64,000 nt of DNA from Pseudomonadota bacterium (GCA_026388275.1 JAPLKB010000059.1:28155-92154), one strand, 5' to 3'. Positions 25,322-44,625 are shown, counted from the stretch's first letter. Numbers and translations: made by a program. Notes: generated from the sequence alone by a model not told the origin.

Positions 25322-25632
25322 ATTTGCAATCCCTTGGAAAAAAGAGGAAAATAAATTATTCAACTACAATGTTACGGTTCATAAGGTTGCATTTAGTGCC
25401 ATTTTGCATTGAGGTTTTAAATGTTCTTAACTATTCACTATGTCCCGCATAAAGCGGGATTAAACCGTGCACTAACACTATTCACTGTATTTTCGCTCAG
25501 CACGGGGGTTTTATGGGGTTTGGCTATTCACTATCCACTAACGACTATTCACTGTATTTTAAATTCGGCACGGCATTTCAAACTGGTTGCCGGTGAGGCA
25601 TTGGAGTTTTGAAGGATGTCCCGATTTTCCGT
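25322..25632 (+). repeat. Direct repeat copy 1 (~310 bp) upstream of the RhuM-Doc gene
   Basis: It begins atttgcaatcccttggaaaaaagaggaaaataaattattca. It contains gaggttttaaatgttcttaactattcact, gggggttttatggggtttggctattcactatccactaacgactattcactgtattt and attcggca...ttgaaggat. It is colinear with 26879-27148. Confidence 0.85.
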
Positions 25633-25715
25633 CATACAATGTTGTTTAATAGATAGATTATGAGAACACGTCAAGATTATAGCCATAAAAACTACAGAGG
25701 CAGAAAGTCTAACTG

Positions 25716-26714: not shown

Positions 26715-26878
26715 ATGAGATCGAGTGGGAAAAAGTGAGCCAAGTGAAGACAGATAGGAGTTTATATGATATTGTTAGGCATTCGAATTAACAAGATGCC
26801 CCCTAAAAAGATTAAATTGAAAAAGGCTCAATAAAAAAAGCTTGTGGAAACGTGGTAATAAGTAATATAGGCTCATAT

Positions 26879-27148
26879 CATTTGCAATCCCTTGAAAAAA
26901 ATAGGAAAATAAATTATTCAAATCAAAGTTTCAGAGCATATGGGGCCATTTGGCAGCGAGGTTTTAAATGTTCTTAACTATTTACTGTTAACTAACGACT
27001 ATTCACTGTTTTTTCACTCGGCGCGGGGGTTTTATGGGGTTTGGCTATTCACTATCCACTAACGACTATTCACTGTATTTCGGATTCGGCAAAGTATTTC
27101 CAATCACTGGCGGGGAGTTATCGGTTGAAGAATACTCCCATTGTCCAG
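26879..27148 (+). repeat. Direct repeat copy 2 (~270 bp) immediately upstream of dcm
   Basis: It begins atttgcaatcccttgaaaaaaataggaaaataaattattca and shares the same internal blocks as 25322-25632. It lacks the TCCCGC hairpin segment present in copy 1. Confidence 0.85.
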
Positions 27149-27179
27149 ATTTATGGCAAACACTTTGGTATAAGACTAT

Positions 27180-28709: not shown

Positions 28710-28728
28710 CACCGAGGGGGATGGTAAC

Positions 28729-32872: not shown

Positions 32873-33800
32873 GTCACGCTGGGGAAGTTTCGGACCGGGA
32901 AGAGGTTTTCAGCGAGTCGATGAGGACCATCCTCTGGACTTCTATATCGGTGTTGATATTTCGGACCACCGTGTTCTGCTTCTTGTTATGGAAAGTGAGC
33001 TACATGTTCCCATGCAAAGCCAAGCAATTCAAGTTATTTGTAGCCGGAGACAGGACGGCAGATGGGCTCTCATGTTTTCTCTCTTGCGGCCCGATCTGGG
33101 AGTGATCTTTTCGCATCTATGCGAGGATATTGTGGAATCAAGTCGAAAAATATCAGATAAATCGAAAGCTGGTGAGCTTATCTTGAGCCGTTTTGTCCGG
33201 TGGCAACGACTCCTTAGAAGCGGTAGCACGGGTTTACTTGACGAATCAGTGCAGAAGGGACTTCTTGGAGAGTTATTGTTTCTTCGGCAGTTAGCATTGC
33301 CGGTCTATGGTACTATTTCTGCCCTCGAAGGCTGGGTTGGACCCTTGAATGCTGAACAGGATTTTCGATACGTAGACAGGATTTTCGAGATCAAGACAAT
33401 CGGACCGGATGCGCTCACCGTGAGAATCTCTTCCGCTGAACAATTGGATGATACCGACCGACCGATTCAACTGGTTCTGGTAGTGTTAAACCAAACTGAT
33501 CGGACTGATGCCGATGCGTTTTGTCTTTCAAGCATTGTTGCTGAACTACGGCAGGAACTGCTGTTCGATCCAGCAGCGTCAGCTCTCTTTGGTGATCGGC
33601 TTTTGTCAATCGGATACTTTGATAGAGACGAGTATAGCACACTATTTTTCAGATTCGACCGTTTTCGGTACTTTGCGATCCGTGAGGGGTTTCCAAGGAT
33701 AGTACGGTCGCGGCTACCGTTAGCAGTTAGCAGCGTGAGATATGAACTATATATTCAGGCTTGTCTGCCTTATGAGATCGTGGGCACTAGGGAGGAATAA
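32859..33800 (+). CDS. PD-(D/E)XK-motif nuclease-like protein
   Basis: ~313 aa. GLLGELLFLRQLA, then EQDFRYVDRIFEIKT, gives an E ... D ... E-x-K arrangement. The start (32859 or 32835) overlaps the Z1 gene end. The stop lies 1 nt before the AIPR start. Confidence 0.65.
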   Translation: MTTFESRWGSFGPGRGFQRVDEDHPLDFYIGVDISDHRVLLLVMESELHVPMQSQAIQVICSRRQDGRWALMFSLLRPDLGVIFSHLCEDIVESSRKISDKSKAGELILSRFVRWQRLLRSGSTGLLDESVQKGLLGELLFLRQLALPVYGTISALEGWVGPLNAEQDFRYVDRIFEIKTIGPDALTVRISSAEQLDDTDRPIQLVLVVLNQTDRTDADAFCLSSIVAELRQELLFDPAASALFGDRLLSIGYFDRDEYSTLFFRFDRFRYFAIREGFPRIVRSRLPLAVSSVRYELYIQACLPYEIVGTREE

Positions 33801-33801
33801 T

Positions 33802-35886
33802 ATGGAGCTTGAAGATTACCGCAAAGATTTCCTTGAATCTGTCAAGTCACGCGCGGCTGCCGACGGAGACCTGACTCAAGCGGCGTTCGTGACGGTTGTG
33901 TCTGAGAGACTCATAGAGGCAGAGGAATTACAGGATTTTGAACCCTGTTATTATCCAGGAAGCGGGATTCGAGATCGCAGGTTGAAGCTTCGCGTAGATG
34001 GGTATTCTTACGATGATACCGATGGTTCTTACAACCTTATTATTGCTGACTATCGGGGTAATGATGATATTGAGACGCTAACGCAGACCGATGCGACCAC
34101 TCAGTTTACAAGACTTCGATCATTTCTTTTGGAGGCGGTTTCCGGTATGCTGCATCCGGTACTGGAAAACAGTTCTCCGGCACATGCTCTTGCCGTCAAA
34201 CTCTATGGACATCCTGATCTTATCACGCGTTTTCGCCTCTTCCTCGTAACCGACGCAGTTCTCAGTGCTCGTGTCAAAGATTGGCGCGAGGAATCTCTTA
34301 ACGACAAACCTATCGAGTTCCATATATGGGACATTGCACGTTTCCACAGGGTTTCCGAATCCATGACAGGAAGGGATGAGCTTACCGTAGATTTTCGGGA
34401 GTTCGCGGATGATGGTGTTCCCTGTCTGGAAGCGAGCCAGACTGACGGAGAGTATAAGGCCTACCTATGCGTTATGCCGGGAAGTATTCTTGCCGACCTC
34501 TACGACAGATTCGGTAGCCGGCTACTTGAAAATAACGTTCGTTCATTTCTGGGGATACGTGGAACAAAGAGCGTGAACAGCGGTATCCGTAACACTATAC
34601 TGAAGCAACCTACTATGTTTTTTGCATATAACAATGGTATCGCGGCAACTGCCAGCGAAGCAGAAGTTGTTTATTCCGGGAACAGTCTGTATCTGGCGCA
34701 GGCAAAGGACCTTCAAATCGTGAACGGCGGACAGACAACTGCGTCACTGACCAATACAAGGCGCAAAGACAAAGCTGCACTTGATGGTATATTCATACAA
34801 ATGAAGCTCTCTGTTATCGAGCCCAATCGAGCAGAGGAGGTAATTCCGCTCATCTCCCGTTTTGCAAACAGTCAGAACAAGGTGAGTGATGCAGATTTCT
34901 TCTCTAATCACCCATTCCACATAAGAATAGAGACGCATTCGAGGCGTATATGGGCACCGGCCGTGGATGGCGCTCAGCATGAGACGCACTGGTTTTATGA
35001 GCGGGCCAGAGGCCAATTTCTTAACGAACAGGCCAAACTGTCGCCATCTGAAAAACGCCGGTTCCTACAACAAAATCCACGTTCCCAATTGCTTACAAAA
35101 ACGGATCTTGCCAAGTATGAGAATACTTGGAGAGGCATGCCGCATATTGTCAGTCTCGGGGCGCAAAAAAACTTCAAATATTTCGCTGAGTGGATTGATG
35201 AAAAATGGAAAGCTTCAGATGTTGATTTCAGCGAAGAATATTTCAAAAATATTGTTGCCAAGGCTATTCTGTGGCAGTACACGGAACGAATGATCTCCGG
35301 GCAGACATGGTATCAGGGCGGATACCGGGCAAATATTGTTGCCTACACTATTGCCAAGCTTTCAAACAGTATTGAGGTCGAGGGCAAGGGGCAGGCCCTT
35401 GATTTGCGAGCCATCTGGACAAAGCAGCAGCTATCGGATGCAATCCTGAAGCAACTTCAGTTGATCGCCGAGGCCATGTCAAAAGTGATTGTAGATCCTG
35501 ATAGACCTGTGGAAAATGTTACAGAATGGTGCAAGAACAAGCTTTGTTTTGAAAGAGCGGAGAAGTTACAAATACCGCTGTTGCCTGGATTCTATAAGGA
35601 ATTGGTCGACAAAGATGAACTGAGGGTTGCAGCAAAAGATGGAAAGTCCCTGCAGAAGACCGACAAAGGGATCTCTGCTCAAATGGAGGTTCTGGAATTA
35701 GGTGCCGTGTACTGGTTGCAAGTAAAGGACTGGAGCGAAAGCAACAAACTGTTGACTCCAGAGGAAACAAAACTGGTGGCCCTTGCTTCAAGGATACCAG
35801 CAAATATTCCCAACTACTACCAGAGCCAAAGACTTCTTGAAATACGGCAAAAAATCGAGATGGAAGGATTTATGGCATCGTCGTAA
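33802..35886 (+). CDS. AIPR (abortive-infection phage-resistance) family protein
   Basis: ~694 aa. NNVRSFLGIRGTKSVNSGIRNTI, FFAYNNGIAATAS and LQIVNGGQTTASL are the blocks I associate with the AIPR family. Start is MELEDYRK, behind GGAGGA. Confidence 0.75.
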   Translation: MELEDYRKDFLESVKSRAAADGDLTQAAFVTVVSERLIEAEELQDFEPCYYPGSGIRDRRLKLRVDGYSYDDTDGSYNLIIADYRGNDDIETLTQTDATTQFTRLRSFLLEAVSGMLHPVLENSSPAHALAVKLYGHPDLITRFRLFLVTDAVLSARVKDWREESLNDKPIEFHIWDIARFHRVSESMTGRDELTVDFREFADDGVPCLEASQTDGEYKAYLCVMPGSILADLYDRFGSRLLENNVRSFLGIRGTKSVNSGIRNTILKQPTMFFAYNNGIAATASEAEVVYSGNSLYLAQAKDLQIVNGGQTTASLTNTRRKDKAALDGIFIQMKLSVIEPNRAEEVIPLISRFANSQNKVSDADFFSNHPFHIRIETHSRRIWAPAVDGAQHETHWFYERARGQFLNEQAKLSPSEKRRFLQQNPRSQLLTKTDLAKYENTWRGMPHIVSLGAQKNFKYFAEWIDEKWKASDVDFSEEYFKNIVAKAILWQYTERMISGQTWYQGGYRANIVAYTIAKLSNSIEVEGKGQALDLRAIWTKQQLSDAILKQLQLIAEAMSKVIVDPDRPVENVTEWCKNKLCFERAEKLQIPLLPGFYKELVDKDELRVAAKDGKSLQKTDKGISAQMEVLELGAVYWLQVKDWSESNKLLTPEETKLVALASRIPANIPNYYQSQRLLEIRQKIEMEGFMASS

Positions 35887-35901
35887 TTAAACATAATGTT
35901 T

Positions 35902-36393
35902 CTATGGTTTTCTATCCCCATACTTAGATCGTGTTTCTGCTACCATGAGCATATCTTCATTATTTGCTGTTTGTAACAAAGGATGCAATATACTTTCCTG
36001 AAGTTTTAAGGCAAGGTTTTCAAGTGATTTTTCCGTCTCACACTCCCAAACTATGATGACGTTCCATCCAAGAAGCTCAAGGTCTGACTGTTTTTGTCTA
36101 TCTCGCACAATATTTCCGAAAAATTTCTTCTCCCAGAATTCAGTATTGGTCTTGGGTGTCGTGGCATTTTTACAGCCGGAGTGACGGTGCCAGAAACAAC
36201 CATGTACAAAAATTACTGTCTTATATTTCGGAAGCATGATATCGGGCTTCCCCGGCAGGTCCTTGCAATGTAATCTGTAACGATACCCCATTAAATGAAG
36301 TAAAGATCTGACAACTTTCTCCGGCTTGGTGTCTCCGGATTTTATCCGGCTCATATTCCAACTTCTTTTTTCACGTGTCAGACTGTCAACCAT
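35902..36393 (-). CDS. vsr: Very-short-patch repair endonuclease Vsr
   Basis: DTKPEKVVRSLLHLMGYRYRLH, PGKPDIMLPKYKTVIFVHGCFWHRHSGC and LLGWNVIIVWECE are present. It converges on the AIPR gene with a 15-nt gap. Start is taken at MVDSLTREKRSWNMSRI. Confidence 0.9.
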   Translation of the reverse strand: MVDSLTREKRSWNMSRIKSGDTKPEKVVRSLLHLMGYRYRLHCKDLPGKPDIMLPKYKTVIFVHGCFWHRHSGCKNATTPKTNTEFWEKKFFGNIVRDRQKQSDLELLGWNVIIVWECETEKSLENLALKLQESILHPLLQTANNEDMLMVAETRSKYGDRKP

Positions 36394-36585
36394 ATGCTTT
36401 CCCTGAAGGCAAAATATAGCATAAGTTTTTTTGGAGAACAAAGAGTATTGTACATCGAGTTCGCACACCGGCGGGGGAATTGTGTTCTATCGATTCGCAG
36501 ATGGCGCGCCTGCGCTTGAAGTCAATCTGAAGAGGGATGTGAGTTGGGAGAAGTGGCAACTACCAAAGAATCCTCGGTAGTTCAG

Positions 36586-36705
36586 GATGAAGGCGGACGA
36601 AAAATCCGACAATTCCAACATCCCAAAAGCCCCTTCGGGAGATTGGTTGACACTGTGTCAACCAATCAGCTAATCCGCCGTAAAACTAATACAGACGATG
36701 CTTTG
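36586..36705 (+). repeat. Hairpin repeat unit A1 (perfect 10-bp stem ttggttgaca/tgtcaaccaa at 36643-36665)
   Basis: gatgaaggcggacgaaaaatccgacaa..cccaaaagccccttcgggagaTTGGTTGACActgTGTCAACCAAtcagctaatccgccgtaaaactaatacagacgatgctttg. It is near-identical to 39623-39742 and related to 38821-38921. Confidence 0.85.
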
Positions 36706-36821
36706 TGGATAGGAAGGAACAAACAGGGAATTATGAAAACAAGGCCCCAAAGCGAAGCGCAATTCAATTGTATATTTCGAACAAATAAGAGGGAAGAGTA
36801 TGTAAAAATCTTATACTTTCT

Positions 36822-36890
36822 GTGTCCACCAAAACCCTCCTCAGACAATTTGCTGTAACAGTTACAGCAAATCCTCAAATCGCCGCAAAG
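36822..36890 (+). repeat. Hairpin repeat unit B (12-bp palindrome atttgctgtaac/gttacagcaaat at 36848-36872)
   Basis: It has the same flank grammar (cc-rich left flank; right flank tcc.caaatcgccgcaaa) as the other units, but a different, still perfectly complementary, stem sequence. Confidence 0.7.
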
Positions 36891-36939
36891 CTTAGATAGA
36901 AGCCATTTAGCACATGGCTGTCCCGCAAACTCGACTTTG

Positions 36940-37212
36940 TTCTTTTTCCTCTCGCCCACTCCCTGCGGTCGTTCGAGCACGCAGAGATCGCAGAGTTGAA
37001 ATAACTTTTGCCGGAATTGAGAGAATGATCCATTCCGGCAAAATTGCATACCCTGCGGGTGAATTAATATATTTATCTTTCTCTGTGCACTCTGCGAGAG
37101 ATATCTTTTTGATCTTTACATCCCGCCTCCCGAAGACCCATTCAAGCAATTTGCCGACACTGTGTCGGCAAATCCATAAATCGCCGCAAAACCAATACAG
37201 ACAGTGCTTTAC
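36940..37212 (+). repeat. Long repeat L1, ending in hairpin unit C1 (atttgccgaca-ctg-tgtcggcaaat at 37149-37173)
   Basis: ttcctctcgcccactccctgcggtcgttcgagcacgcagagatcgcagagttgaaataa ... tctttctctgtgcac ... catcccgcctcccgaagacccattcaagca-hairpin-ccataaatcgccgcaaaaccaatacagac. It is colinear with 38486-38700, except for an extra ~60 bp (37010-37070) that itself contains the ttgccggaat/attccggcaa hairpin. Confidence 0.85.
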
Positions 37213-37266
37213 TGGATATGGCAGAAAAAACACTGGTTTAATGCAGCTAATGAACAAAAATATATA

Positions 37267-37295
37267 TTGAGCTTTTCATTATGGTAAAATAATAT
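37267..37295 (+). promoter_or_regulatory. Sigma-70-type promoter inside the repeat tail, facing the zeta-like cassette
   Basis: TTGAGC (37267-37272), a 17-nt spacer, TAATAT (37290-37295). The homologous tail at 39798-39827 reads TTAAAC-18-CAATAT in front of the orphan antitoxin. Confidence 0.5.
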
Positions 37296-37345
37296 GGATG
37301 TGAGGGGCCAGTTTATTAACACGAGATGTCCTTCACCATTTCAAT

Positions 37346-37483
37346 ATGTTTAGTAATACAGAAGGGTTAGCCCTTTACAAAGAATATTTTAACAGCCAAC
37401 TTGCTAAAATGGCTGAATACTTACGAGAAAAAATAATGTGGCACGGGTTATCTAAAATAAGAAGTAGGGAAACTGAAAGGTGA
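37346..37483 (+). CDS. Candidate 45-aa ORF whose stop overlaps the GTG start of the zeta-like gene
   Basis: MFSNTEGLALYKEYFNSQLAKMAEYLREKIMWHGLSKIRSRETER. Its TGA (37481-37483) overlaps the GTG at 37480 (GTGA). It has no clear Shine-Dalgarno sequence and is below the ORF-track cutoff. Confidence 0.3.
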   Translation: MFSNTEGLALYKEYFNSQLAKMAEYLREKIMWHGLSKIRSRETER

Positions 37484-38073
37484 CATTATCAATGGACAAG
37501 CCAAAACTCTATATTATTGCCGGACCGAACGGTTCCGGAAAAACAACCTTCGTTCAACGCTTCCTCCCCTATTATGCGGACTGTACCAATTTTGTAAACG
37601 CAGACTTAATAGCATCAGGTCTGTCTCCGTTTTTACCTGAAATTGCCGCCATTAAGGCAGGCAAGCTTATGATAGATGAGATAGATATATTCAGAAGGCG
37701 CCGGGCAGATTTTGCCTTTGAGACAACATTGTCGGGCAAAACATATGTGAAATTACTGAAGGAAATGAAGATGGACGGATATGAGGTTCATATTTTCTTT
37801 TTGTGGCTGCGCAATATTGACCTTGCATTAAAAAGAGTAGCTGAACGGGTAGCCATGGGAGGACACAATGTTCCTGTTGGGACTGTGCGCCGTAGGTTTG
37901 ACAGAGGCCTCCATAACCTGTTTAATTTATATTGTCATTTTGCTGACTCATGGGTTATTTTTGATAATTCAGAATTATTGCCCTGTGTGGTTGCAAAAGA
38001 AACGGCTGGAGTACTGACAGTGATTGATGGTAAACTATTTGAAGAAATAAGGGCAAAGGTGGAGACGCCATGA
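37480..38073 (+). CDS. Zeta-toxin-like P-loop kinase / AAA-family ATPase
   Basis: 197 aa. Walker A is YIIAGPNGSGKTTF. The following FVNADLIA ... FAFETTLSG ... FFLWL...AL.RVAERVAMGGHNVP pattern is typical of zeta/COG4185-type proteins. An alternative ATG start is at 37492. Confidence 0.75.
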   Translation: MTLSMDKPKLYIIAGPNGSGKTTFVQRFLPYYADCTNFVNADLIASGLSPFLPEIAAIKAGKLMIDEIDIFRRRRADFAFETTLSGKTYVKLLKEMKMDGYEVHIFFLWLRNIDLALKRVAERVAMGGHNVPVGTVRRRFDRGLHNLFNLYCHFADSWVIFDNSELLPCVVAKETAGVLTVIDGKLFEEIRAKVETP

Positions 38074-38267
38074 AGGGACAAGCAGTAAATAAAAAATTGT
38101 TGAAAGACATGCCTCTTGATATTAGAGCGGAAATGGCCCTGAAAGAGGCTGTGGCTGATGCCATTGCCGAGCACAAGAAACAGGGGCACCCCATTGCCGT
38201 GTGGCGCGACGGCAAAACGATTTTGATTCCTCCCGAAGAGATTGATTTATCGAAGACGAATGGCTAA
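38070..38267 (+). CDS. Small partner protein of the zeta-like gene (putative antitoxin-type)
   Basis: 65 aa, with an ATGA overlap onto the upstream gene. LKEAVADAIAEHKKQGHPIAVWRDGKTILIPPEEI resembles small proteins I recall beside zeta-like kinases. No search was done. Confidence 0.5.
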   Translation: MKGQAVNKKLLKDMPLDIRAEMALKEAVADAIAEHKKQGHPIAVWRDGKTILIPPEEIDLSKTNG

Positions 38268-38485
38268 AACAAAGATTATCAGAAAAGACAAAGAACCCGT
38301 GTGGTTGTCCTGGATAAAGATAGACTCAATGATGTTTGTCAATCCGTCAAGTTGAGTTCACATACCTGGAGTGCCATAAGATCATCTTGCGATATAATCC
38401 AATTTCCACCACAATTGTTGGGTATAGAAAGATAGTGTGGTGGAAAACATAAAAAAAGAATAGATAAATGATACAGACAATCAAT

Positions 38486-38700
38486 TCTTCTTTCTCTCGC
38501 CCACTCCCTGCGGTTGTTCGAGCACGCAGAGATCGCAGAGTTGAAATAATATTTTTGTCTTTCTCTGTGCACTCAGCGGACTCTGCGGGAGATATGCTTT
38601 TGATCTTTAATTCCCGCCTCCCAAAGACCCATTCAAGCAATTTGCCGACACTGTGTCGGCAAATCCATAAATCGCCGTAAAACCAAGACAGATAATGTTC
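38486..38700 (+). repeat. Long repeat L2, ending in hairpin unit C2 (38640-38664)
   Basis: ttctttctctcgcccactccctgcggttgttcgagcacgcagagatcgcagagttgaaataa ... ttcccgcctcccaaagacccattcaagca-ATTTGCCGACActgTGTCGGCAAAT-ccataaatcgccgtaaaaccaagacag. It is the same order and orientation as L1. Confidence 0.85.
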
Positions 38701-38820
38701 TGCGAATAAGAAGGAACAAAAAGGAAATTATAAAAACGAGGCACCAAAGCGAAGCATAAGTCAATTGTATATTCCGAACAAAAAAACGAGAAAGGAGTGT
38801 AAAAGTTTTCGGAATCTGTC

Positions 38821-38921
38821 ACATCCCGCCATCCCAAAAACCCCATCGGGAGATTCGTTGACACTGTGTCAACCAAGCAGCTAATCCGCTGTAAAACCAA
38901 TACAGAAGCCATTCAGCACAT
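38821..38921 (+). repeat. Hairpin repeat unit A2 (stem 38854-38876 with one mismatch)
   Basis: acatcccgccatcccaaaaaccccatcgggagaTTCGTTGACActgTGTCAACCAAgcagctaatccgctgtaaaaccaatacagaagccattcagcaca. The tail agaagccatt.agcaca also follows unit B at 36897-36915. Confidence 0.8.
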
Positions 38922-38953
38922 ATCATTCTAAATTATAGGACAGATTATCTTTT

Positions 38954-39235
38954 TCATTTTTTTCCGTATAACTCGTCGTGGCTTCCCACATCGAGGAATA
39001 TAATTTCCTTTTCTGTTATCATAAGCGTCAGGGTAATACGATATTTGTATGTAAGGCTGGCAGCCCAGAGACCTTCGAGCTTCCCGGTAAGAGGATGCAA
39101 TTGAAGAGCCGGTTGAAAGGGGTCTTCTGACAGGTCTGTGACAAGTTTTGTAAAGCGCCCTTTGAGATCCGGGTGCTTTTTAAAGAACTTCCCTGCCTGT
39201 CGAAGAAACTGATCTGTTGCCTGAATAACATACAT
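38954..39235 (-). CDS. RelE/ParE-superfamily toxin
   Basis: 93 aa. FKKHPDLKGRFTKLVTDLSEDPF...LHPLTGKLEGLWAASLTYKYRITL....IIFLDVGSHDELY fits the RelE/YafQ-type pattern. Confidence 0.8.
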   Translation of the reverse strand: MYVIQATDQFLRQAGKFFKKHPDLKGRFTKLVTDLSEDPFQPALQLHPLTGKLEGLWAASLTYKYRITLTLMITEKEIIFLDVGSHDELYGKK

Positions 39236-39237
39236 GG

Positions 39238-39504
39238 TCAGTCTTCCTTTTCAATTGCTTTGAGCAGATCTTCAGCGTCTTTGAATGTTTGTATGCGTTT
39301 GGCCTTCACGTCCTGTAGTGAAGCGCGGACCCGTGCGACATATGCGGAACTCTGCTCTTCAACGAGTTCGCTATAGAGCTTTTCCGAAAGAATTACATAT
39401 TGAGGCTTATTGTTCTTAATAACATATACCGGGCCTTCTTCGATCTTTTCGTCCACCGCTTTCATGCCCCGTCTCTTTATCTCCTGTGCTGCAACAGTAT
39501 TCAT
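39238..39504 (-). CDS. Phd/YefM-family antitoxin
   Basis: MNTVAAQEIKRRGMKAVDEKIEEGPVYVIKNNKPQYVILSEKLYSELVE. The start sits behind CAGGAGG and the stop lies 2 nt before the toxin start. Confidence 0.8.
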   Translation of the reverse strand: MNTVAAQEIKRRGMKAVDEKIEEGPVYVIKNNKPQYVILSEKLYSELVEEQSSAYVARVRASLQDVKAKRIQTFKDAEDLLKAIEKED

Positions 39505-39622
39505 GACGATACCTCCTGAAGTACTTAATATGGTGCTTAAATTATAGTATATATCAGTCCTGTTTGCAACCAACTTTTCACGATGTGAGGATGTGAGGGG
39601 TCAGGCAATGACTCAGAACAAA

Positions 39623-39742
39623 GATGAAGGCGGACGAAAAATCAGACAATCCCGCCGCTCCAAAAGCCCCTTCGGGAGATTGGTTGACACTGTGTCAACC
39701 AATCAGCTAATCCGCTGTAGAACCAATACAGACAATGCTTTG
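39623..39742 (+). repeat. Hairpin repeat unit A3 (stem 39680-39702)
   Basis: It is near-identical to A1 along its full length. It is followed (39743-39825) by the same tail that follows L1 (ctgg.tatg.cagaaaa.acactggttt.atgcagctaatgaacaaaa). Confidence 0.85.
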
Positions 39743-39855
39743 CTGGCTATGACAGAAAATACACTGGTTTGATGCAGCTAATGAACAAAATTATGCATTA
39801 AACTTTCTTATTATGATAAAACAATATGCAGCCAGGCAGGAGCAATGGAGGTACA

Positions 39856-40065
39856 GTGATAACAAAACAAAAGCAAAAAGAGGTTATAAGCGTTAAACAG
39901 TTTGTGACGGACAAAAAAGGACAGAAGGTAGCGGCTATTGTGGATATAAAAGAGCTTGACAGAGTTAAGACCATGCTTGAAGACCTTTATGATTTAAAAA
40001 CTATTGAAGACAGGATTGCAGAACCCTCAGAAGACTACGAAAATTACAGCTCCTTGAGATTGTGA
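39856..40065 (+). CDS. Orphan antitoxin-like protein (no adjacent toxin)
   Basis: VITKQKQKEVISVKQFVTDKKGQKVAAIVDIKELDRVKTMLEDLYDLKTIEDRIAEPSEDYENY is the usual shape of RelE/ParE-partner antitoxins. A GTG start sits behind GGAGG. The next gene is dus, not a toxin. Confidence 0.55.
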   Translation: MITKQKQKEVISVKQFVTDKKGQKVAAIVDIKELDRVKTMLEDLYDLKTIEDRIAEPSEDYENYSSLRL

Positions 40066-40075
40066 GAAATGGCTT

Positions 40076-41086
40076 TTGACTATGACTATGCAGCAAATTG
40101 AAATTCAGAATCTTCGGATTAATCCGCCCTTGTTTCTGGCCCCGATGGCAGGCCTTACACACAGCGCATTCCGGCAGATTTTATCCGGCTTTGGCGGAGT
40201 CGGACTCTTATCAACGGAGATGCTCTCGGCAAAAAGACTGCCCACGGAAAACCCCGGGATTTCTCCCTGTCTTATCAGGACTGCTCTGGAAAAACCGCTT
40301 TCCTATCAACTCCTGATTTCCACGGACAGAGATATTCCACCGGCTATAGATGCGCTTCACAGGTTTCAGGCGGATGCTATTGATCTGAACATGGGATGTC
40401 CGGCCCGCTCTGTCGGAAATTATGGTGCGGGCTTTGCACTTATGGAACATCCGGATAATGCCCGTCGTATCCTGGCCGAAGCAAGGAAAAGGACGCTCCT
40501 GCCCCTTACCGCAAAAATCAGACTCGGTGATGAACTCGATGATAAGAAATTGAAGTCATTCTGTACTATTCTCGAAGATGGAGGCATAGATATGCTCTCG
40601 GTTCATGCCCGGTTTAAGAAGGAGTCTTTTGCCAGAAGACCGCGATGGGAGTTGATTGCCAGAATAAAGGAATGGCTCAGAATTCCTGTTGTTGCTAACG
40701 GCGGAATCTTCTCTGTCCAGGATGCTCGTGATTGCCTGCGAGTCTCCAACGCCGACGGTCTGATGATTGGCCGCGGAGCGGTGATCAAGCCGTGGCTTTT
40801 TGCTGAGATTGCCCGTGACCTTTACGGGTGCAGCATCGCGAAACCGGCAGTATCTCTTCCTGTGATTTACAGCAGCTATCTGGACCTTGTCAATGAGCTT
40901 TTCCGACCGGAAAGACGGCTGGGCAGGCTTAAGGAATTTACTTATTATTTTGCTAAAAATTATAAATTCGGGCATCAGTTAAGTTCCTGTATTCAGAACA
41001 GTAAAAGTATGGATGAAGCCTGTGAAAGGGCCGGCATTTTCTTTGAGCAGGACGCGGGACATCCTTCAGTACTTCAATATACTTAA
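40076..41086 (+). CDS. dus: tRNA-dihydrouridine synthase
   Basis: 336 aa with FLAPMAGLTHSAFRQ, AIDLNMGCPARSV and HARFK (TIM-barrel Dus motifs). The start is ambiguous among TTG 40076 and ATG 40082/40088. Confidence 0.8.
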   Translation: MTMTMQQIEIQNLRINPPLFLAPMAGLTHSAFRQILSGFGGVGLLSTEMLSAKRLPTENPGISPCLIRTALEKPLSYQLLISTDRDIPPAIDALHRFQADAIDLNMGCPARSVGNYGAGFALMEHPDNARRILAEARKRTLLPLTAKIRLGDELDDKKLKSFCTILEDGGIDMLSVHARFKKESFARRPRWELIARIKEWLRIPVVANGGIFSVQDARDCLRVSNADGLMIGRGAVIKPWLFAEIARDLYGCSIAKPAVSLPVIYSSYLDLVNELFRPERRLGRLKEFTYYFAKNYKFGHQLSSCIQNSKSMDEACERAGIFFEQDAGHPSVLQYT

Positions 41087-41309
41087 TAAACCGGAAGTGG
41101 TAGCCACTGATAAAGTACAGATTGATATCCAACCTTCTGAAATGGTTGAATATTTGATAGAGAAAATGGTATGACAGGATTATGATAACAGAACTTAAAG
41201 GGTTAAGGGGACGAGTTATGTCAGGCCGTGTTTTCCAGCATGAAGGAATGCTGGTTGTTTTAACAGCGGGATAAGCAGAATAGACCTACATTCAAAGATA
41301 AGGAGGGTA

Positions 41310-42185
41310 ATGATGGAAAAAATCAGAAAAATCCGGAAAGTGATGGAGAGTAAGCCTGCTGTTGAGGGGGCGGGAGTTCATCTGAGACGGGCCTTTGGCT
41401 CAAGCGAAGTTCCAGATTTTGATCCATTTCTTATGCTTGACGATTTTCGTTCGGATGACCCGCGTCATTACCTGAAAGGTTTCCCCTGGCATCCGCATCG
41501 CGGAATCGAAACAATTACATATGTTCTTTACGGTAGTGTCGAGCATGGTGACAGCATGGGAAATACAGGTGTAATTGCCGGCGGTGATGTTCAGTGGATG
41601 ACCGCAGGCAGCGGTATTATCCATCAGGAGATGCCTAAAGGAGATAAGTCGGGACGGATGGGCGGTTTCCAGCTATGGGCAAACCTTCCGGCATCCCACA
41701 AAATGATGGAGCCCCGTTACCGCGGGCTGACAAATGATGAGATACCTGAAATTTCCACTGAGAATGAAGTTAAAATACGGATTATTTGCGGTGAAGCCGG
41801 GGGCACAAAGGGGCCTGTTACCGATATAGTTACTGATCCTGAATATCTGGATGTGACTATCCCGAGCCATTCAACTTTTACGCGGCAAACCAGGGCGGGC
41901 CACACAGTCCTTGCCTATGTCATTGAAGGAGAAGGTTATTTCGACACGAAAAGAGAAATCGCAACAGGCAACAACAACCTCGTTGTCTTCGATGACGGCG
42001 ATCAGGTAGATATATCCACTAAGGCGCAAAAGGTACGATTTCTGCTTATCTCAGGGAAACCGATAGGCGAGCCGGTTGCCTGGTACGGACCGATAGTGAT
42101 GAACACCCAGGAGGAATTACAGACTGCCTTTGACGAGTATCGCGCCGGTACGTTCATCAAGCACGGTTTCCGCCACTCCAAATAA
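41310..42185 (+). CDS. Pirin family protein
   Basis: 291 aa. FPWHPHRGIETITYVLYGSVEHGDSMGN is the pirin cupin metal-site motif. Confidence 0.9.
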   Translation: MMEKIRKIRKVMESKPAVEGAGVHLRRAFGSSEVPDFDPFLMLDDFRSDDPRHYLKGFPWHPHRGIETITYVLYGSVEHGDSMGNTGVIAGGDVQWMTAGSGIIHQEMPKGDKSGRMGGFQLWANLPASHKMMEPRYRGLTNDEIPEISTENEVKIRIICGEAGGTKGPVTDIVTDPEYLDVTIPSHSTFTRQTRAGHTVLAYVIEGEGYFDTKREIATGNNNLVVFDDGDQVDISTKAQKVRFLLISGKPIGEPVAWYGPIVMNTQEELQTAFDEYRAGTFIKHGFRHSK

Positions 42186-42193
42186 CCCTTCAG

Positions 42194-42223
42194 GGAATTT
42201 TCCGAAACATTTTCGGAAAATCC
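42194..42223. terminator. Strong hairpin between the convergent pirin and EF-hand genes (possible bidirectional terminator; no clear T tract)
   Basis: ggaattttccgaaa-cat-tttcggaaaatcc forms an 11-bp perfect core stem plus extra pairs. Confidence 0.4.
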
Positions 42224-42478
42224 ATGAACAGCCGTAAAGCCAATATGGACAATGGTTTGTGAGCGGGACAGAAATATAAATAAAAATTATCCGATGACCC
42301 TCAAATTTAATTCATACTTATCTTTCTCACAGATTAACAATGAAAGATCACAAAGTTTATGCAGGGGCTGCGGATTCACCTCATCAGATACACTGCCGGA
42401 TTCTTTTTTTATAGGGAGAAAGATCTGCCCTTCTTTGGGCAGTCATTGAATTTCTTTCTCCCCATGTCTTCTTTATGG

Positions 42479-43141
42479 CTACACTATGCCCAATATACCG
42501 CCAGTTGCTCCTGCCGCTGAAGACTTTGCAGCATATTTCAAGATTTGCATAAAGGCTGACCCTGCCAATGAAATAATAGAGCTTGAATTGTCGGTGCTTC
42601 CGCTCGTACAATTCGTAGCGTCGGGAGGCAATGGAGGCAGACCATTCGGGCCGCCGGGGTCTTTCGCAATAAACTCCGATTGACTGATTGAACCATCTTT
42701 ATTTGTATCGAGTTTGGAGTAAAGTTCATCAGCCTGAGTCACTGTCATATTGGAAGGTCTGCTAATTTCAAACTCTGTCTTGCTCAGAGTGCCATCTCCG
42801 TTAATATCTATTTTTTTGAATATCTCTTCTCCTGACAGACGACCTGTAGAGCCGGTGCTATTCGCGCCTGCGGCGCCGGCAATCGACTCATTCAGTGCAT
42901 TCAAAAGGCTGACAAAAGACGATGTGCTGTCACTGTCAGAGCCCATAATAGGGTTTGCAGATGATGAACGACTTAGTGCCGAAGACAGCTCGCTCTTGCT
43001 TATAGAACCATCCCCATTGGTGTCAAACAAACTGAAAACGTTGTTTGTGGATGCACTTCTACTCGTGCCGGTGCTCTTTGATGCCTGCAGCAATTGCCAT
43101 AGATAATCGGAACTCGATGCTCCGCTTACGGCGTTAATCAA
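42479..43141 (-). CDS. EF-hand calcium-binding protein (three canonical loops)
   Basis: 220 aa. Loops are DTNGDGSISKSE, DINGDGTLSKTE and DTNKDGSISQSE (DxNxDGxIxxxE), separated by S/T/A/G-rich linkers. Confidence 0.8.
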   Translation of the reverse strand: MINAVSGASSSDYLWQLLQASKSTGTSRSASTNNVFSLFDTNGDGSISKSELSSALSRSSSANPIMGSDSDSTSSFVSLLNALNESIAGAAGANSTGSTGRLSGEEIFKKIDINGDGTLSKTEFEISRPSNMTVTQADELYSKLDTNKDGSISQSEFIAKDPGGPNGLPPLPPDATNCTSGSTDNSSSIISLAGSAFMQILKYAAKSSAAGATGGILGIV

Positions 43142-43610
43142 ATTAGCCTCCTTGTTTATGTGAGGTTGTTCCTCGCTCCCTCCTTATGAGCGATAGAATA
43201 ACTTATATTATATAAAGCAATGTATATGCCATGGACCAGCATAGTCAATATCTTTAATGATATCAGCAGTTAACGTATTTCAGAGCGGGTATGATGGGCA
43301 GCAGAAATGAGGAAAAAATTTCTCAAAGCGGAAAAATGTTCCGTCAGGCAGACCGAAAATAAGTCTACTCTTTAGCGTGTAACATGCCGGGAATTGTGTA
43401 GAGACTATTTTAAAAAGAAGCAACGATATGCGCCCCATAAAAATAACAAAAATTAGCAAATTAGGGTCAGGTTTTTGAAATATAAGTTTTATTTTGCTAT
43501 ATTCTCTATATGGTATGTCCTCTGCGTTTAGAAATCCTGGCGCTCTATACAGAAAAATACCGGGAATTTAGATGCCATATCCGAACAGACACAAGAAAGG
43601 AGGATTTACA

Positions 43611-44285
43611 ATGGGAAGACAATCATTGAGAATCATTTGCTGTGTGGCAGGAGTTCTTTTTTGTGTTTCGAGCCTTGTATTGGCGCAGGACATCAAACCG
43701 ATTTTTCTGCCCCAACCCAGAATAGAGGGGGGCAAGCCACTAATGCTGGCATTAAAGGACAGATGTTCAACAAAGGCATATAGTACACAACCAATTCCCA
43801 TGGAGATGCTTTCGGATCTCTTGTGGGCAGCCTATGGTATCAATCGTACGAATTTAGAAAAGCGCACAGCGCCTTCGGCAGGCAATAGCCATAACATTGA
43901 TGTTTATGTCTTGATGTCACAAGGCGCGTACCTTTACAATGCAAAGGCTCACAGTCTGGTTCCTGTCCTGGCAGAGGATCTGCGACACTTATCGCCAGGG
44001 CCGCAGCAATATGCTAAAGAGGCACCGCTCCATTTGCTCTACGTGGCAGACTATGCCAGGATGAAAGGGTTCCCCGATCGTCAAAAGCAGATCTTTTTTT
44101 CTGCCTGCAACACGGGGCCAATTTACCAGAATGTTTATTTATACTGCGCCTCTGCGGGATTGGGATCAGTTGTCCGGGCAAGCATGGATGCTCCTGCTTT
44201 ACATAAAAAGCTGAAATTAAGAGACGATCAGGAAATAATGCTCAACCAGCTTGTTGGTTATCCAAAGAATGCCGGGCTGAAGTAA
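43611..44285 (+). CDS. Nitroreductase-family protein with an N-terminal signal-like segment
   Basis: Start is MGRQSLRIICCVAGVLFCVSSLVLAQD, behind AAAGGAGG. RCSTKAYSTQPIPMEMLSDLLWAAYGINR and PSAGNSHNIDVYVL fit the nitroreductase fold pattern. Confidence 0.6.
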   Translation: MGRQSLRIICCVAGVLFCVSSLVLAQDIKPIFLPQPRIEGGKPLMLALKDRCSTKAYSTQPIPMEMLSDLLWAAYGINRTNLEKRTAPSAGNSHNIDVYVLMSQGAYLYNAKAHSLVPVLAEDLRHLSPGPQQYAKEAPLHLLYVADYARMKGFPDRQKQIFFSACNTGPIYQNVYLYCASAGLGSVVRASMDAPALHKKLKLRDDQEIMLNQLVGYPKNAGLK

Positions 44286-44304
44286 AATTTTGTGAGCAGG
44301 TAAA

Positions 44305-44430
44305 ATGGACAATACCATAACCGCAACAATCCTTGAAAGTATGAGTGACGGTGTGCTTGTTATAGGCTTCAATGGCCGCATTGTTTTTTGCTGCAATCGT
44401 TGCATTATTACCAGGGGAATTTTGGCGTAA
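44305..44430 (+). pseudogene. 41-codon fragment resembling the first strand/helix of a PAS sensor domain
   Basis: MDNTITATILESMSDGVLVIGFNGRIVFCCNRCIITRGILA, then TAA. ILESMSDGVLVI..NGRIV is the usual PAS N-cap/beta1-beta2, but the reading frame ends after 41 aa. Confidence 0.35.
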
Positions 44431-44625
44431 AAATGGAGAAAAGGCAGCTTTTTGTATATGTCAAATAGATGACATGTATGTATTTCTTTCCAACGTTAAA
44501 ACTGTTTCGAATGATCCAGGAATTGTCAAAACATGCTGCAACGCACATTAAAATCAATAGCTATATAGCTGTAACATTCCGTTATTGTTTATAACTCATA
44601 ACTGGTCATTTGCCGCTGTTCCCTT

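What the first reader, a model, noticed from the sequence alone, without database searches (positions are those of the whole stretch)
36469..39830. Same-orientation hairpin repeats with compensatory stem changes punctuate a toxin-antitoxin cassette array
Seen in sequence:
- Six ~70-120-bp units sit at 36586, 36822, 37118, 38605, 38821 and 39623, all on the + strand.
- They share flank grammar: a C-rich left flank (atcccgcc.ccc.aaa.cc), then the hairpin, then tcc.taaatcgccg.aaaaccaatacaga.
- Their central perfect palindromes differ by paired substitutions: TTGGTTGACA/TGTCAACCAA, ATTTGCCGACA/TGTCGGCAAAT and ATTTGCTGTAAC/GTTACAGCAAAT. Complementarity is preserved while the sequence changes, which argues for selection on a DNA or RNA hairpin rather than on a coding frame.
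- The units are embedded in larger mosaic repeats (36940-37212 versus 38486-38700, with a 60-bp indel; tails at 37213-37300 versus 39743-39825 carry promoter-like -35/-10 boxes).
- They sit exactly at the junctions between the vsr end of the defence operon, the zeta-like cassette, the RelE-Phd cassette and the orphan antitoxin.

Inference: this looks like a cassette array with reusable junction modules. Candidates are a recombination-site array analogous to integron attC clusters lacking an integrase, a REP/RAYT-type element family, or a family of structured small RNAs or leaders. I cannot decide between these from the sequence.
Basis: partly seen in the sequence, partly recalled or inferred. 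Interest (0 to 1): 0.7.

Follow-up and report, generated by a model that had tools for sequence, protein, structure and literature searches.

The report
Orphan palindrome repeats from ParB-like genes
The hairpin repeats are real, but they are decayed, non-coding copies of one short block of a ParB/Spo0J-type gene family whose intact members all carry a perfect but highly variable palindrome inside the codons for their DNA-binding helix, so they are most likely orphan copies of that family's own binding site.

Summary
There are seven co-oriented units of about 115 nt, not six; the seventh (42164-42278) overlaps the pirin stop codon. Their 11-bp stems differ only by paired Watson-Crick changes.

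The units are not attC sites, REPs or any Rfam RNA. A covariance model built from the seven window units alone hits one spot inside intact ~315-aa ParB/Spo0J-family genes in related metagenome loci. That spot encodes the start of the helix-turn-helix.

Every intact gene with DNA in hand has a perfect, different palindrome there. In 114 of 120 family proteins, the residues around an invariant Thr fit a stem of at least 9 bp, against 4% in controls.

The window copies have lost coding capacity (stop codons, a frameshift) but keep perfect palindromes. They lie at rearrangement junctions in a toxin-antitoxin/defence island that splits a flagellar gene cluster.

Twenty intact paralogues have NCBI accessions in the same block as the window's proteins. 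Some have the same core peptides as unit types A, B and E.

Best reading: orphan parS-like sites for resident ParB-like proteins. The origin is well supported (about 0.9); the function is inferred (about 0.4). Main rival: functionless relics kept palindromic by template-switch correction.

The parts
36609..36724 (+). Unit U1 (type A). Palindrome at 36641-36667. A 23-nt left extension (36586-36608) is shared only with U6.
   Evidence: Model R2 scores 115.7 bits. Inverted repeat I1. Alignments A1 and A5.
36815..36929 (+). Unit U2 (type C). Palindrome at 36848-36872 (ATTTGCTGTAA-CAG-TTACAGCAAAT). Its right flank breaks off after ...ATAGA into 'tail-b' (AGCCATTTAGCACAT), which is shared with U5.
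   Evidence: R2 scores 85.9 bits..
37116..37231 (+). Unit U3 (type B). Palindrome at 37149-37173. In the ParB frame it reads YIPPPEDPFKQFADTVSANP*IAAKPIQTVL, with a TAA stop where the genes have Lys.
   Evidence: R2 scores 120.5 bits. tblastn with the L107 ParB-like protein gives E = 0.022. Translation.
38607..38721 (+). Unit U4 (type B, 93% identical to U3). Palindrome at 38640-38664.
   Evidence: R2 scores 122.1 bits..
38820..38935 (+). Unit U5 (degenerate type A). Palindrome at 38852-38876 with two mismatched pairs. Ends in tail-b.
   Evidence: R2 scores 96.2 bits. Stem check.
39646..39762 (+). Unit U6 (type A, 91% identical to U1). Palindrome at 39678-39704. Followed by 'tail-a', shared with U3.
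   Evidence: R2 scores 111 bits..
42164..42278 (+). Unit U7 (type E), not in the original finding. Palindrome at 42197-42221 (ATTTTCCGAAA-CAT-TTTCGGAAAAT). Its left end at 42167 replaces the last three codons of pirin: the native ...IKHGKK* becomes ...IKHGFRHSK*.
   Evidence: R1 scores 63.9 bits and R2 103 bits. Sequence. Homology of pirin to L091 stops at 42166.
36940..37115 (+). Module Y, which precedes the B-type units. The second copy is at 38485-38606. The copies differ by a 63-nt indel that holds a hairpin (37006-37043) and by a 9-nt indel. No relatives were found outside the window.
36725..36814 (+). Spacer X, between U1 and U2. The second copy is at 38722-38819, between U4 and U5; identity is 79%. 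It is non-coding: an ATG ORF in one copy is broken in the other.
   Evidence: Repeat D2; sequence read.
37232..37300 (+). Tail-a, downstream of U3. The second copy is at 39763-39825, downstream of U6; identity is 84%. It lies upstream of the zeta-like gene and of the RelB-like gene. Its promoter character is not supported by the consensus scan.
37480..38267 (+). Zeta-toxin-like P-loop protein (197 aa) plus an overlapping 65-aa ORF.
   Evidence: Pfam Zeta_toxin, E = 3.1e-09. Logan contigs carrying this gene end inside the U3 and U4 palindromes.
38952..39573 (-). RelE/YafQ-like toxin (38954-39235) and Phd antitoxin, with a promoter at 39569-39541. The 618-bp block 38952-39569 recurs in three unrelated contexts elsewhere.
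39826..42185 (+). RelB/Phd-like 79-aa ORF, Dus (40076-41086) and pirin (41310-42185). This stretch lies between U6 and U7.
   Evidence: Only the dus ORF is shared with 80 related loci.
22900..44600 (.). Higher-GC island (0.42-0.48, against 0.36-0.38 outside) that holds all seven units. Gene order: Fic, ParE, RhuM-Fic, Dcm-HATPase-Z1-DUF4420-AIPR, Vsr, the TA array, Dus, pirin, an EF-hand protein, a nitroreductase. It is inserted between flgE and fliL.

Best explanation
Shown:
- Each unit is a decayed, non-coding copy of one block of about 110 nt from a ParB/Spo0J-family gene. The block encodes the start of the helix-turn-helix (HTH).
- In intact genes of this family (about 315 aa, with ParB_N and HTH_ParB domains and GERR and ENLQRED motifs) the block contains a perfect palindrome of 10-12 bp per arm around a 3-nt centre.
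- The palindrome differs from gene to gene and is kept by paired changes. These fall at synonymous sites where possible. Otherwise the amino acids on either side of an invariant Thr change together.
- The 'compensatory stem changes' in the window are therefore the hallmark of this gene block.
- The window copies share stop codons and odd residues (F/L...N, ANP, AAKP). This suggests a single loss of coding followed by spread as a short repeat. They still keep perfect palindromes.

Inferred:
- The palindrome is the cognate parS-like loading or operator site of each ParB-like paralogue.
- The window units are orphan copies of such sites. ParB-like proteins encoded elsewhere in the same genome would bind them in trans and load there as CTP-dependent clamps.
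- The clamps would spread or slide over the adjacent TA and defence cassettes, silencing, insulating or organising them, as KorB does at its OB sites, SopB at sopC and BisD on ICEclc.
- Because they are repeated and co-oriented, the units also act as substrates for recombination. That would explain why they sit at mosaic junctions.
For: Origin:
- Model R3, built from the seven window units only, hits one place in three different intact ParB-like genes: L107 (40.6 bits, E = 5.6e-07), L118 (36.3 bits) and L111 (35.0 bits). It also hits a gene fragment in L028 (44.8 bits).
- The hits are collinear with the reading frame.
- B-type units are 58-64% identical to the genes (the related L091 unit up to 66%), the same range as gene versus gene (60-73%).
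- Pfam and NCBIfam identify the genes as ParB_N + HTH_ParB / parB_part.
- The block aligns to HTH helix 1 of Thermus Spo0J (PDB 1vz0).

Family-wide palindrome:
- The DNA of L107, L111, L118 and L028 shows four different palindromes, three perfect and one (L111) with a single outer mismatch.
- 114 of 120 proteins are compatible with a stem of at least 9 bp, against 4.1% in controls. There are 68 distinct cores, and the two most variable columns of the protein flank the invariant Thr.

Maintenance without coding:
- The units carry TAA or TGA stops and a +1 frameshift.
- Unit types are 57-80% identical to each other, yet 5 of 7 stems are perfect, there are no G-U pairs, and 25 cells have changes on both sides.

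Resident readers:
- All 20 NCBI family members looked up have accessions MCX5804924-MCX5817887, bracketing the window's MCX5807215-232.
- P0339 and P0315 have the core VDTVST (type A), P0318 has ADTVSA (type B) and P0346 has SETFSE (type E).

Site-reader coupling:
- The residue at -1 of the palindrome covaries most strongly with its partner (0.97), then with positions 172 and 171 at the start of the recognition helix.

Context:
- Intact genes always lie in TA or restriction-modification islands.
Against: - No binding data exist, and the palindromes (about 25 bp, with an odd centre) do not resemble canonical 16-bp parS.
- Five different palindromes in one 5.7-kb array would need several different readers.
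- No intact ParB-like gene lies in the 64-kb window.
- Assigning the paralogues to the same genome rests only on accession proximity.
- About 40 nt of flank on each side is conserved, which a 25-bp binding site does not require.
- No second copy of a gene's own palindrome was found within 10 kb of L107 or L111.
- The covariation with the recognition helix could reflect phylogeny or block-wise inheritance, since neighbours on both sides score high.
- Perfect palindromes can be kept by a mutational bias, template switching, without any selection (PMC8794818).
Confidence: 0.45

Rival explanations
1. The units are functionless debris. In a genome with dozens of ParB-like paralogues in TA islands, one pseudogene fragment was duplicated along with neighbouring DNA by illegitimate and homologous recombination. 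The palindromes stay perfect, and appear to change in a compensatory way, only because replication template switching between the two arms (quasipalindrome correction) copies any new mutation onto the other arm.
For: - The units carry stops and frameshifts, and differences between U1 and U6 are mostly non-synonymous in the open frame (sequence).
- U1/U5/U6 and U3/U4 are plain local duplicates within larger duplicated modules.
- Units lie at breakpoints. The pirin 3' end is truncated at 42167. The L091 unit abuts the first 50 nt of a truncated acetyl-CoA hydrolase gene at a TGCT microhomology. The L028 fragment lies next to an IS fragment.
- Template switching is documented to create and maintain perfect stems (PMC8794818, found).
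- The L091 unit shows an uncompensated A.C intermediate.
Against: - Unit types that are only 57-80% identical keep 11 of 11 pairs. The outer pair changed I...I to F...N, which is only possible after coding was lost, so maintenance went on for a long time.
- The same block of about 110 nt, and nothing else of the gene, is retained in every copy and in a second lineage (L091).
- In intact genes the palindrome persists across a family with 425 hits at E <= 1e-20 (55-100% identity among the 120 listed), despite the cost in amino-acid changes. That points to selection at least in the genes.
Confidence: 0.3
2. The units are recombination sites for a dedicated recombinase. Cassettes are inserted, excised and shuffled between units, as in an integron-like or tandem-island array, and the ParB-like gene block serves as the attachment site.
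For: - All seven units have the same orientation, and flanks and tails recombine in a mosaic pattern: A+x, A+a, A+b, B+a, B+x, C+b.
- The unit has discrete ends. The left end is near ATYCCGCC (U7 begins at 42167). The right end falls after ACAG(A) in U2, U5 and the L091 unit.
- A related strain has Fic instead of the zeta cassette upstream of RelE-Phd.
- L091 carries a pirin 3' end next to the RelE end. That junction is what a circle excised between U5 and U7 would contain.
Against: - No integrase, transposase or HUH enzyme was found among the island's ORFs of 110 aa or more.
- Adjacent units have different palindromes and share no identical core.
- attC features are absent.
- The RelE-Phd and zeta cassettes occur elsewhere without units, and their shared boundaries (38952-39569 and 37841-38315) do not coincide with unit ends.
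- The L091 junction looks microhomology-mediated.
Confidence: 0.1
3. The units act as RNA: a 3'-UTR or processing hairpin, or a small RNA whose stem is kept by selection on RNA folding.
For: - Folding z-scores range from -1.3 to -4.1.
- The solitary copies U7, L091 and L028 all lie downstream of, and in the same orientation as, a gene in a convergent intergenic region.
- The left flank is C-rich and unstructured.
Against: - No Rfam family matches.
- Only one helix is conserved.
- There are 0 G-U pairs and 0 one-sided changes in 132 stem cells.
- The stem is not followed by a U-tract.
- U1 and U6 lie upstream of genes or divergent from them.
- The element is explained by descent from a coding block.
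Confidence: 0.07
4. The units are silent donor cassettes. The array would be a store of partial copies of the hypervariable 'site plus reader' block, used for segmental gene conversion into expressed ParB-like paralogues, by analogy with pilS or vls cassettes.
For: - The unit spans exactly the hypervariable block of the protein (residues about 144-178), which is bounded in the genes by near-invariant sequence (ENLQREDLNP..., ISLLKLVPKIQ).
- Many paralogues appear to share one genome.
- High mutual information among neighbouring variable columns is consistent with block exchange.
Against: - Six of seven units carry in-frame stops or a frameshift, and residues (N, P, AAKP) never seen in the 120 intact proteins.
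- The conserved gene sequences that would guide conversion are absent from the units.
Confidence: 0.05

Closest known systems
Centromere and operator sites of ParB-family proteins: chromosomal parS (including the parS inside B. subtilis spo0J), F-plasmid sopC (12 direct 43-bp repeats, each with a short inverted repeat), RK2 KorB OB sites, ICEclc BisD
   Same: - A palindromic site is tied to a ParB-family HTH protein, and a copy of the site lies inside the protein's own gene.
- Several co-oriented site-bearing repeats are clustered on a mobile or accessory region, next to promoters of accessory genes.
- The intact proteins keep the GERR and ENLQRED motifs of CTP-dependent clamps (sequence; own knowledge of the motifs; BisD paper PMC12409273 listed).
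   Different: - The palindrome is about 25 bp with an odd centre, not 16 bp.
- It lies in the HTH-coding codons, whereas in spo0J the parS lies in the linker (own knowledge).
- It is hypervariable among paralogues and imposes amino-acid covariation.
- The window copies carry about 40 nt of decayed gene sequence on each side, and five different palindromes sit in one array.
- No ParA partner was seen next to the intact genes.
- Binding is untested.
Integron attC arrays without an integrase (CALIN)
   Same: Co-oriented structured repeats punctuate an array rich in TA cassettes. One repeat overlaps the 3' end of an ORF (U7 and pirin).
   Different: - There are no R''/R' boxes, and the whole unit does not fold: only a short perfect central hairpin forms.
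- There are no extrahelical bases.
- The unit is homologous to a coding block of a ParB-like gene.
- Cassette boundaries do not coincide with unit ends.
REP/BIME, REPIN and Neisseria NIME/dRS3-type intergenic mosaic repeats
   Same: Short palindrome-bearing repeats combine with other short modules (X, Y, tails) into mosaics in intergenic DNA.
   Different: - There is no GTAG head and no inverted pairing of copies.
- All seven copies cluster in 5.7 kb of a 64-kb window.
- No RAYT gene is present.
- The origin from a protein-coding block is demonstrable.
Quasipalindrome template-switch mutagenesis (Ripley model; PMC8794818)
   Same: It gives paired, apparently compensatory changes that keep stems perfect without G-U intermediates.
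   Different: It is a mutational mechanism, not an element. It does not explain why the palindrome exists in every member of a large gene family, or why only this block survives in the orphan copies.

Membership tests
Integron attC site / CALIN | Conserved outer boxes: R'' (RYYYAAC) at the 5' end and R' (GTTRRRY) at the 3' end | tested here: not met
   Reading all seven units shows no such boxes at the unit ends. The left end is ATYCCGCC... and the right end is ...AAYACAGA.
Integron attC site / CALIN | The whole site folds as a long imperfect hairpin (R''/R' and L''/L' stems) with extrahelical bases | tested here: not met
   Only the central perfect stem of 11-12 bp is common to all folds. The flanks are not complementary and no bulged bases are conserved.
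Integron attC site / CALIN | Score with the attC covariance model (IntegronFinder); integron integrase in the genome | not testable with these tools
   The attC model is not in Rfam or otherwise available here. No tyrosine recombinase was found among the Pfam-scanned window ORFs, but the rest of the genome cannot be read.
REP / RAYT (REPIN) | Imperfect palindrome of 20-40 nt with a conserved 5' GT[AG]G, often in inverted pairs | tested here: not met
   There is no GTAG head. All copies are direct, none are in inverted pairs, and the conserved unit is about 115 nt.
REP / RAYT (REPIN) | Many copies scattered through extragenic space genome-wide, with a RAYT gene | tested here: inconclusive
   Within 64 kb all seven copies lie in 5.7 kb, and the rest of the window has none even with filters off. 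No Y1 transposase is in the window. The rest of the genome cannot be read: the GTDB and JGI scans found no true copy.
Any curated RNA family (Rfam 15) | Match to a family covariance model | tested here: not met
   There are 0 matches at gathering score in the window, and only chance-level hits at E up to 10 in 36300-40100.
Fragment (pseudogene block) of a ParB/Spo0J-family gene | Significant, collinear nucleotide homology to the same position of intact family genes | tested here: met
   The window-only model R3 hits L107, L118, L111 and L028 at E = 5.6e-07 to 9.7e-06, always at the HTH-coding block. Identity is 58-66% for B-type and L091 units, equal to gene versus gene.
Fragment (pseudogene block) of a ParB/Spo0J-family gene | Loss of coding capacity | tested here: met
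   U3, U4 and U7 have in-frame TAA or TGA stops. A-type units have a +1 shift after the palindrome, which puts the shared TAA in frame. No other part of the gene is detectable.
ParB/Spo0J family (the intact relatives) | ParB_N and HTH_ParB domains above the curated cut-offs | tested here: met
   ParB_N scores 54.8 bits (cut-off 26.3), HTH_ParB 30.4 (22.6) and TIGR00180 parB_part 80.3 (58.45). PDB Spo0J, Noc and ParB match at E = 3e-17 to 1e-11.
parS-like site of a ParB-family protein | Palindromic DNA site | tested here: met
   Five of seven window units are perfect palindromes of 23-27 bp.
parS-like site of a ParB-family protein | Cognate ParB-family protein encoded in the same genome | tested here: inconclusive
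   None lies in the window. Twenty family members have accessions bracketing the window's. Three of them have the core peptides of unit type A or B (P0339, P0315, P0318), and a fourth (P0346) has that of type E. Their DNA and their assignment to this genome could not be checked.
parS-like site of a ParB-family protein | Specific binding and CTP-dependent clamp loading at the site | not testable with these tools
   This needs EMSA or BLI, ChIP-seq and CTP-hydrolysis or cross-linking assays.

The most novel reading that the evidence does not exclude
In this ParB-like family the binding site and the part of the protein that reads it are the same piece of DNA. A perfect palindrome sits in the codons for the HTH. 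This would generate dozens of mutually orthogonal ParB-like clamps in one genome, each tied to a TA or defence island. The window array would be a set of orphan sites through which resident paralogues control or organise the cassettes.
Probability: 0.25. Interest if true: 0.85.

Novelty: new variant of a known kind. Interest (0 to 1): 0.68.

Why it matters
- It turns an unexplained 'hairpin repeat' into a traceable object: a short non-coding repeat family that was born from a protein-coding block.
- It exposes an uncharacterised, strongly expanded ParB-like family. At least 425 members were found, and 20 lie in one accession block. The HTH-coding segment of each carries a hypervariable perfect palindrome that dictates amino-acid covariation.
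- If the palindrome is the cognate site, this is a compact way to evolve many orthogonal DNA-clamp/site pairs. It would also link ParB-type CTP switches to toxin-antitoxin and defence islands.
- If the palindrome is not the cognate site, this is a clean natural case of template-switch maintenance of palindromes, both inside and outside coding DNA.
- Either outcome can be tested with a handful of purified proteins and oligonucleotides.

Tried and rejected
Searches and tests that led nowhere:
- Rfam at gathering score and at E up to 10, and ARAGORN: nothing.
- The right-flank pattern in GTDB genomes gave one chance hit with no hairpin. JGI metagenomes and IMG/VR gave none. A left-flank pattern in IMG/VR gave none.
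- blastn of 36560-37320 against plasmids and phages: no match.

Readings rejected:
- Units as coding sequence. The 118-aa and 70-aa ORFs over Y+U3 and Y+U4 are not in the protein collection, and differences between U1 and U6 are mostly non-synonymous, so this was rejected.
- X as a small ORF. It is broken in the second copy.
- attC, REP, dif/Xer and oriT-like readings. These were checked by eye against their defining motifs and dropped.
- Units as ends of the TA cassettes. The RelE-Phd and zeta homology boundaries do not reach the units, and relatives of these cassettes elsewhere have no units.
- Dus synteny. In 80 related loci only the dus ORF is shared.

Other negatives:
- A ParB family HMM on translated window fragments detects only about 30 codons, at U3.
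- Modules X, Y, tail-a and the A-type left extension have no relatives in any fetched locus.
- ParB-like relatives are absent from IMG/VR and only distant (37% or less) on plasmids.
- No extra copies of a gene's own palindrome lie within 10 kb.
- One look-up (P0281) found no contig.
- One script call returned no answer.

Full report
**1. The observation**

The six reported units are real, all on the + strand, and are the only copies that blastn finds in the 64-kb window. The conserved right-flank pattern occurs six times, against 0.00 expected.

The three palindromes are as described. U5 has two mismatched pairs. The larger mosaic modules are also real:
- Y: 36940-37115 and 38485-38606, differing by a 63-nt and a 9-nt indel.
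- X: 36725-36814 and 38722-38819, 79% identical.
- Tail-a: about 37202-37300 and 39733-39825, 84% identical.

A covariance model of the units found a seventh copy outside the reported range, at 42164-42278 (+). It has a fifth palindrome, ATTTTCCGAAA-CAT-TTTCGGAAAAT. The promoter-like character of tail-a is not borne out by the consensus scan.

**2. Context**

The window comes from a 152,825-nt contig of an NCBI MAG labelled 'Proteobacteria bacterium' (FlgE is MCX5807215, Dus is MCX5807232).

All units lie in an island of about 21.7 kb with higher GC (about 22.9-44.6 kb) that splits a flagellar gene cluster. FliF, FliG, FliH, FliI, FlgD and FlgE lie on one side, and FliL, FliM, FliP, FliR, FlhB, FlhA and FlhF on the other.

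The island carries Fic, ParE, RhuM-Fic, a Dcm-HATPase-Z1-DUF4420-AIPR operon, Vsr, the TA array, Dus, pirin, an EF-hand protein and a nitroreductase. No integrase or transposase was found among its ORFs of 110 aa or more.

**3. What the units are not**

- Rfam gives nothing.
- The flanks do not pair with each other. Only the central stem is common to the folds.
- There are no attC boxes and no REP head.
- The pattern is absent from GTDB representative genomes (one chance hit), from JGI metagenomes, from IMG/VR, and from plasmid and phage collections.
- Logan contigs that carry the exact zeta or Dus proteins end inside the palindromes. The local repeats themselves explain this.

**4. The turn: the units match a ParB-like gene**

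A profile of the six units found a related copy next to a dus homologue in L027/L028. The covariance models then found one in L091.

They also found one inside an intact 318-aa gene in L107/L108/L109 (62 bits). That gene is a ParB/Spo0J-family protein, with ParB_N and HTH_ParB domains, matching TIGR00180, and with PDB Spo0J, Noc and ParB as best structural relatives.

The hit covers residues about 144-185. The palindrome AAATTGCGGAAA-CTG-TTTCCGCAATTT encodes E-I-A-E-T-V-S-A-I-S. This peptide aligns to the start of HTH helix 1, just before the G-K-S turn and the recognition helix.

Other copies fit the same picture:
- The L028 copy is a 5'-truncated fragment of such a gene, next to an IS remnant.
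- Two further intact paralogues carry different palindromes at the same codons: L111 has TTCTCCGACA-CAG-TGTCGGAGA and L118 has AATTGCAGCAA-CAA-TTGCTGCAATT.

To exclude circularity I rebuilt the model from the seven window units alone. It still finds all three genes and the fragment at E = 6.7e-08 to 9.7e-06. The reverse-strand (palindrome-only) hits score about 20 bits less.

Over 84 core columns the B-type units are 58-64% identical to the genes (the related L091 unit up to 66%), the same as the genes are to each other.

**5. The palindrome is a family-wide, hypervariable feature**

The protein search returned 425 relatives at E <= 1e-20. In an alignment of the best 120, the residues on either side of an invariant Thr change together exactly as a DNA palindrome in that frame requires: E with S, D with S, V with T, L with R, P with G, F with N or K, C with H or Q, A with A, and S with E in the next shell.

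Quantitatively:
- 114 of 120 sequences admit a stem of at least 9 bp beyond a 3-nt loop, against 4.1% when right halves are swapped between sequences.
- There are 68 distinct 8-residue cores.
- The two most variable columns of the whole protein (3.5 and 3.2 bits) flank the invariant Thr.

Between L107 and L028 the stem differences fall on third codon positions and are compensated. On 12 nucleotide sequences the stem is 97% paired. Seven of 11 pairs, and 25 cells, have changes on both sides, none are one-sided, and 0 of 500 shuffles reach the observed score.

**6. State of the window copies**

In the gene's frame the units read as follows:
- U3 reads ...PPEDPFKQFADTVSANP*IAAKPIQTVL.
- U7 has TAA and TGA stops.
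- A-type units have a +1 shift after the palindrome.

Types A, B, C and E and the L091 copy share features never seen in the 120 intact proteins: F or L at -3 paired with N at +3, ANP, and AAKP. This points to a single loss of coding, followed by spread as a short element in at least two lineages. (L028 and L091 come from related organisms.)

Nothing else of the gene is detectable around the units. Unit types that are only 57-80% identical still have perfect stems. The I...I to F...N change of an outer pair is one that a functional protein would not tolerate. So the palindrome has been maintained after coding was lost, either by selection or by a mutational bias.

**7. Junction behaviour**

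- The left end of U7 (42167) replaces the last three codons of pirin. Homology to a pirin fragment in L091 stops at 42166.
- The right end of the L091 unit (...CAGGACAG) abuts the first 50 nt of a truncated acetyl-CoA hydrolase gene.
- U2 and U5 break off at the same position.
- The RelE-Phd block shared with three other contexts is 38952-39569, and the zeta homology is 37841-38315. Neither reaches a unit, and those relatives have no units.

The units therefore mark rearrangement junctions, but they are not the ends of the cassettes.

**8. Are readers present?**

No intact ParB-like gene lies in the window. However, all 20 NCBI family members I looked up have accessions MCX5804924 to MCX5817887, which bracket the window's proteins. 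Five are within about 1,000 accession numbers.

Among these 20:
- P0339 and P0315 have the core VDTVST, matching type A.
- P0318 has ADTVSA, matching type B.
- P0346 has SETFSE, matching type E.

That these proteins come from the same genome is inferred from accession proximity only.

Intact genes seen in context always sit among TA and restriction-modification genes, and no ParA is nearby. The -1 residue covaries most strongly with its palindromic partner (0.97), then with positions 172 and 171 at the start of the recognition helix. Phylogeny and block-wise inheritance confound this result.

**9. Interpretation**

Shown: the units descend from the HTH-coding, palindrome-bearing block of a ParB-like gene family, and the compensatory pattern is that family's hallmark.

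Inferred (about 0.4): the palindrome is each paralogue's own parS-like site, and the window units are orphan sites bound in trans. ParB-like CTP clamps would load there and act on the adjacent cassettes, by analogy with KorB at OB sites, SopB at sopC and BisD (own knowledge; PMC12409273 listed).

Main rival (about 0.3): the units are relics whose palindromes are kept by template switching (PMC8794818). Recombination-site, RNA and donor-cassette readings are less likely, for the reasons listed under the rival explanations.

**10. Verdict**

I found no description of such a ParB-like family in four literature searches. Novelty: a new variant of a known kind. Interest: 0.68.

Noticed in passing
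window 22900-44600: An island of about 21.7 kb with higher GC (0.42-0.48, against 0.36-0.38) is inserted between flgE (21250-22845) and fliL (44650-45186). It splits an otherwise contiguous flagellar gene cluster. No integrase and no flanking direct repeats were found.
   Followed up: partly
window 25322-25582 and 26880-27103: A second pair of repeated junction modules of about 260 nt, 86-95% identical in blocks. They lie upstream of the RhuM-Fic gene (25716) and the Dcm gene (27180), and contain several copies of the motif CTATTCACT(G/A)T. They may be a shared promoter or operator region.
   Followed up: partly
window 22870-22933: Three tandem 21-nt repeats (TTTCAGAAAGTTTTGGAATGG-like) lie immediately after the flgE stop, at the left edge of the island. 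They are followed by a hairpin at 22944-22975.
   Followed up: no
L111 9660-10010; L107 16470-16820 (-); further copies at L111 7727-8067 (-) and L107 20334-20520 (-): A conserved element of about 340 nt lies upstream of the ParB-like genes. It is 83% identical between paralogues whose proteins are 56% identical. It has several hairpins with compensatory changes and also occurs upstream of unrelated genes. It has no Rfam match and is absent from the window. It could be a structured RNA or a mobile promoter module.
   Followed up: partly
NCBI accessions MCX5804924-MCX5817887 (P0255-P0351): At least 20 distinct ParB-like paralogues, each with a different palindrome-encoded core, fall in one accession block that also holds the window's proteins. 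This suggests a very large expansion of the family in this genome or in sister MAGs.
   Followed up: partly
L091 10337-10428 (-), next to RelE at 10001-10282: A 92-nt pirin 3' end (85% identical to window 42075-42166) is fused to a PEP-mutase-like 5' fragment and lies 55 nt from the RelE stop. Pirin and RelE-Phd are therefore neighbours in two lineages, and the window's pirin end was rewritten by U7.
   Followed up: partly
window 40076-41086, compared with L011-L090: The dus ORF is up to 90% identical at the nucleotide level to dus in other metagenome contigs, but homology stops at the ORF ends and no neighbouring gene is shared. The dus in the window therefore looks like island cargo, not a native housekeeping locus.
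   Followed up: yes
JGI 3300075153, 7169-nt contig (no DNA available): This is a strain variant with Fic (359 aa) ending 64 nt from RelE, followed by Phd, the 79-aa ORF and Dus. The zeta cassette and units U1-U4 appear to be absent or replaced.
   Followed up: no
window 37006-37043: A perfect 15-bp hairpin (TTTTGCCGGAAT...ATTCCGGCAAAA) makes up most of the 63-nt indel that distinguishes the two Y modules. It looks like a small insertion or deletion of a terminator-like element.
   Followed up: no
L107 7626-7685 and 7762-7821 (-): Two tandem nhaA-I riboswitch matches (43.5 bits, gathering score 37) lie in a related locus. They are unrelated to the finding.
   Followed up: no
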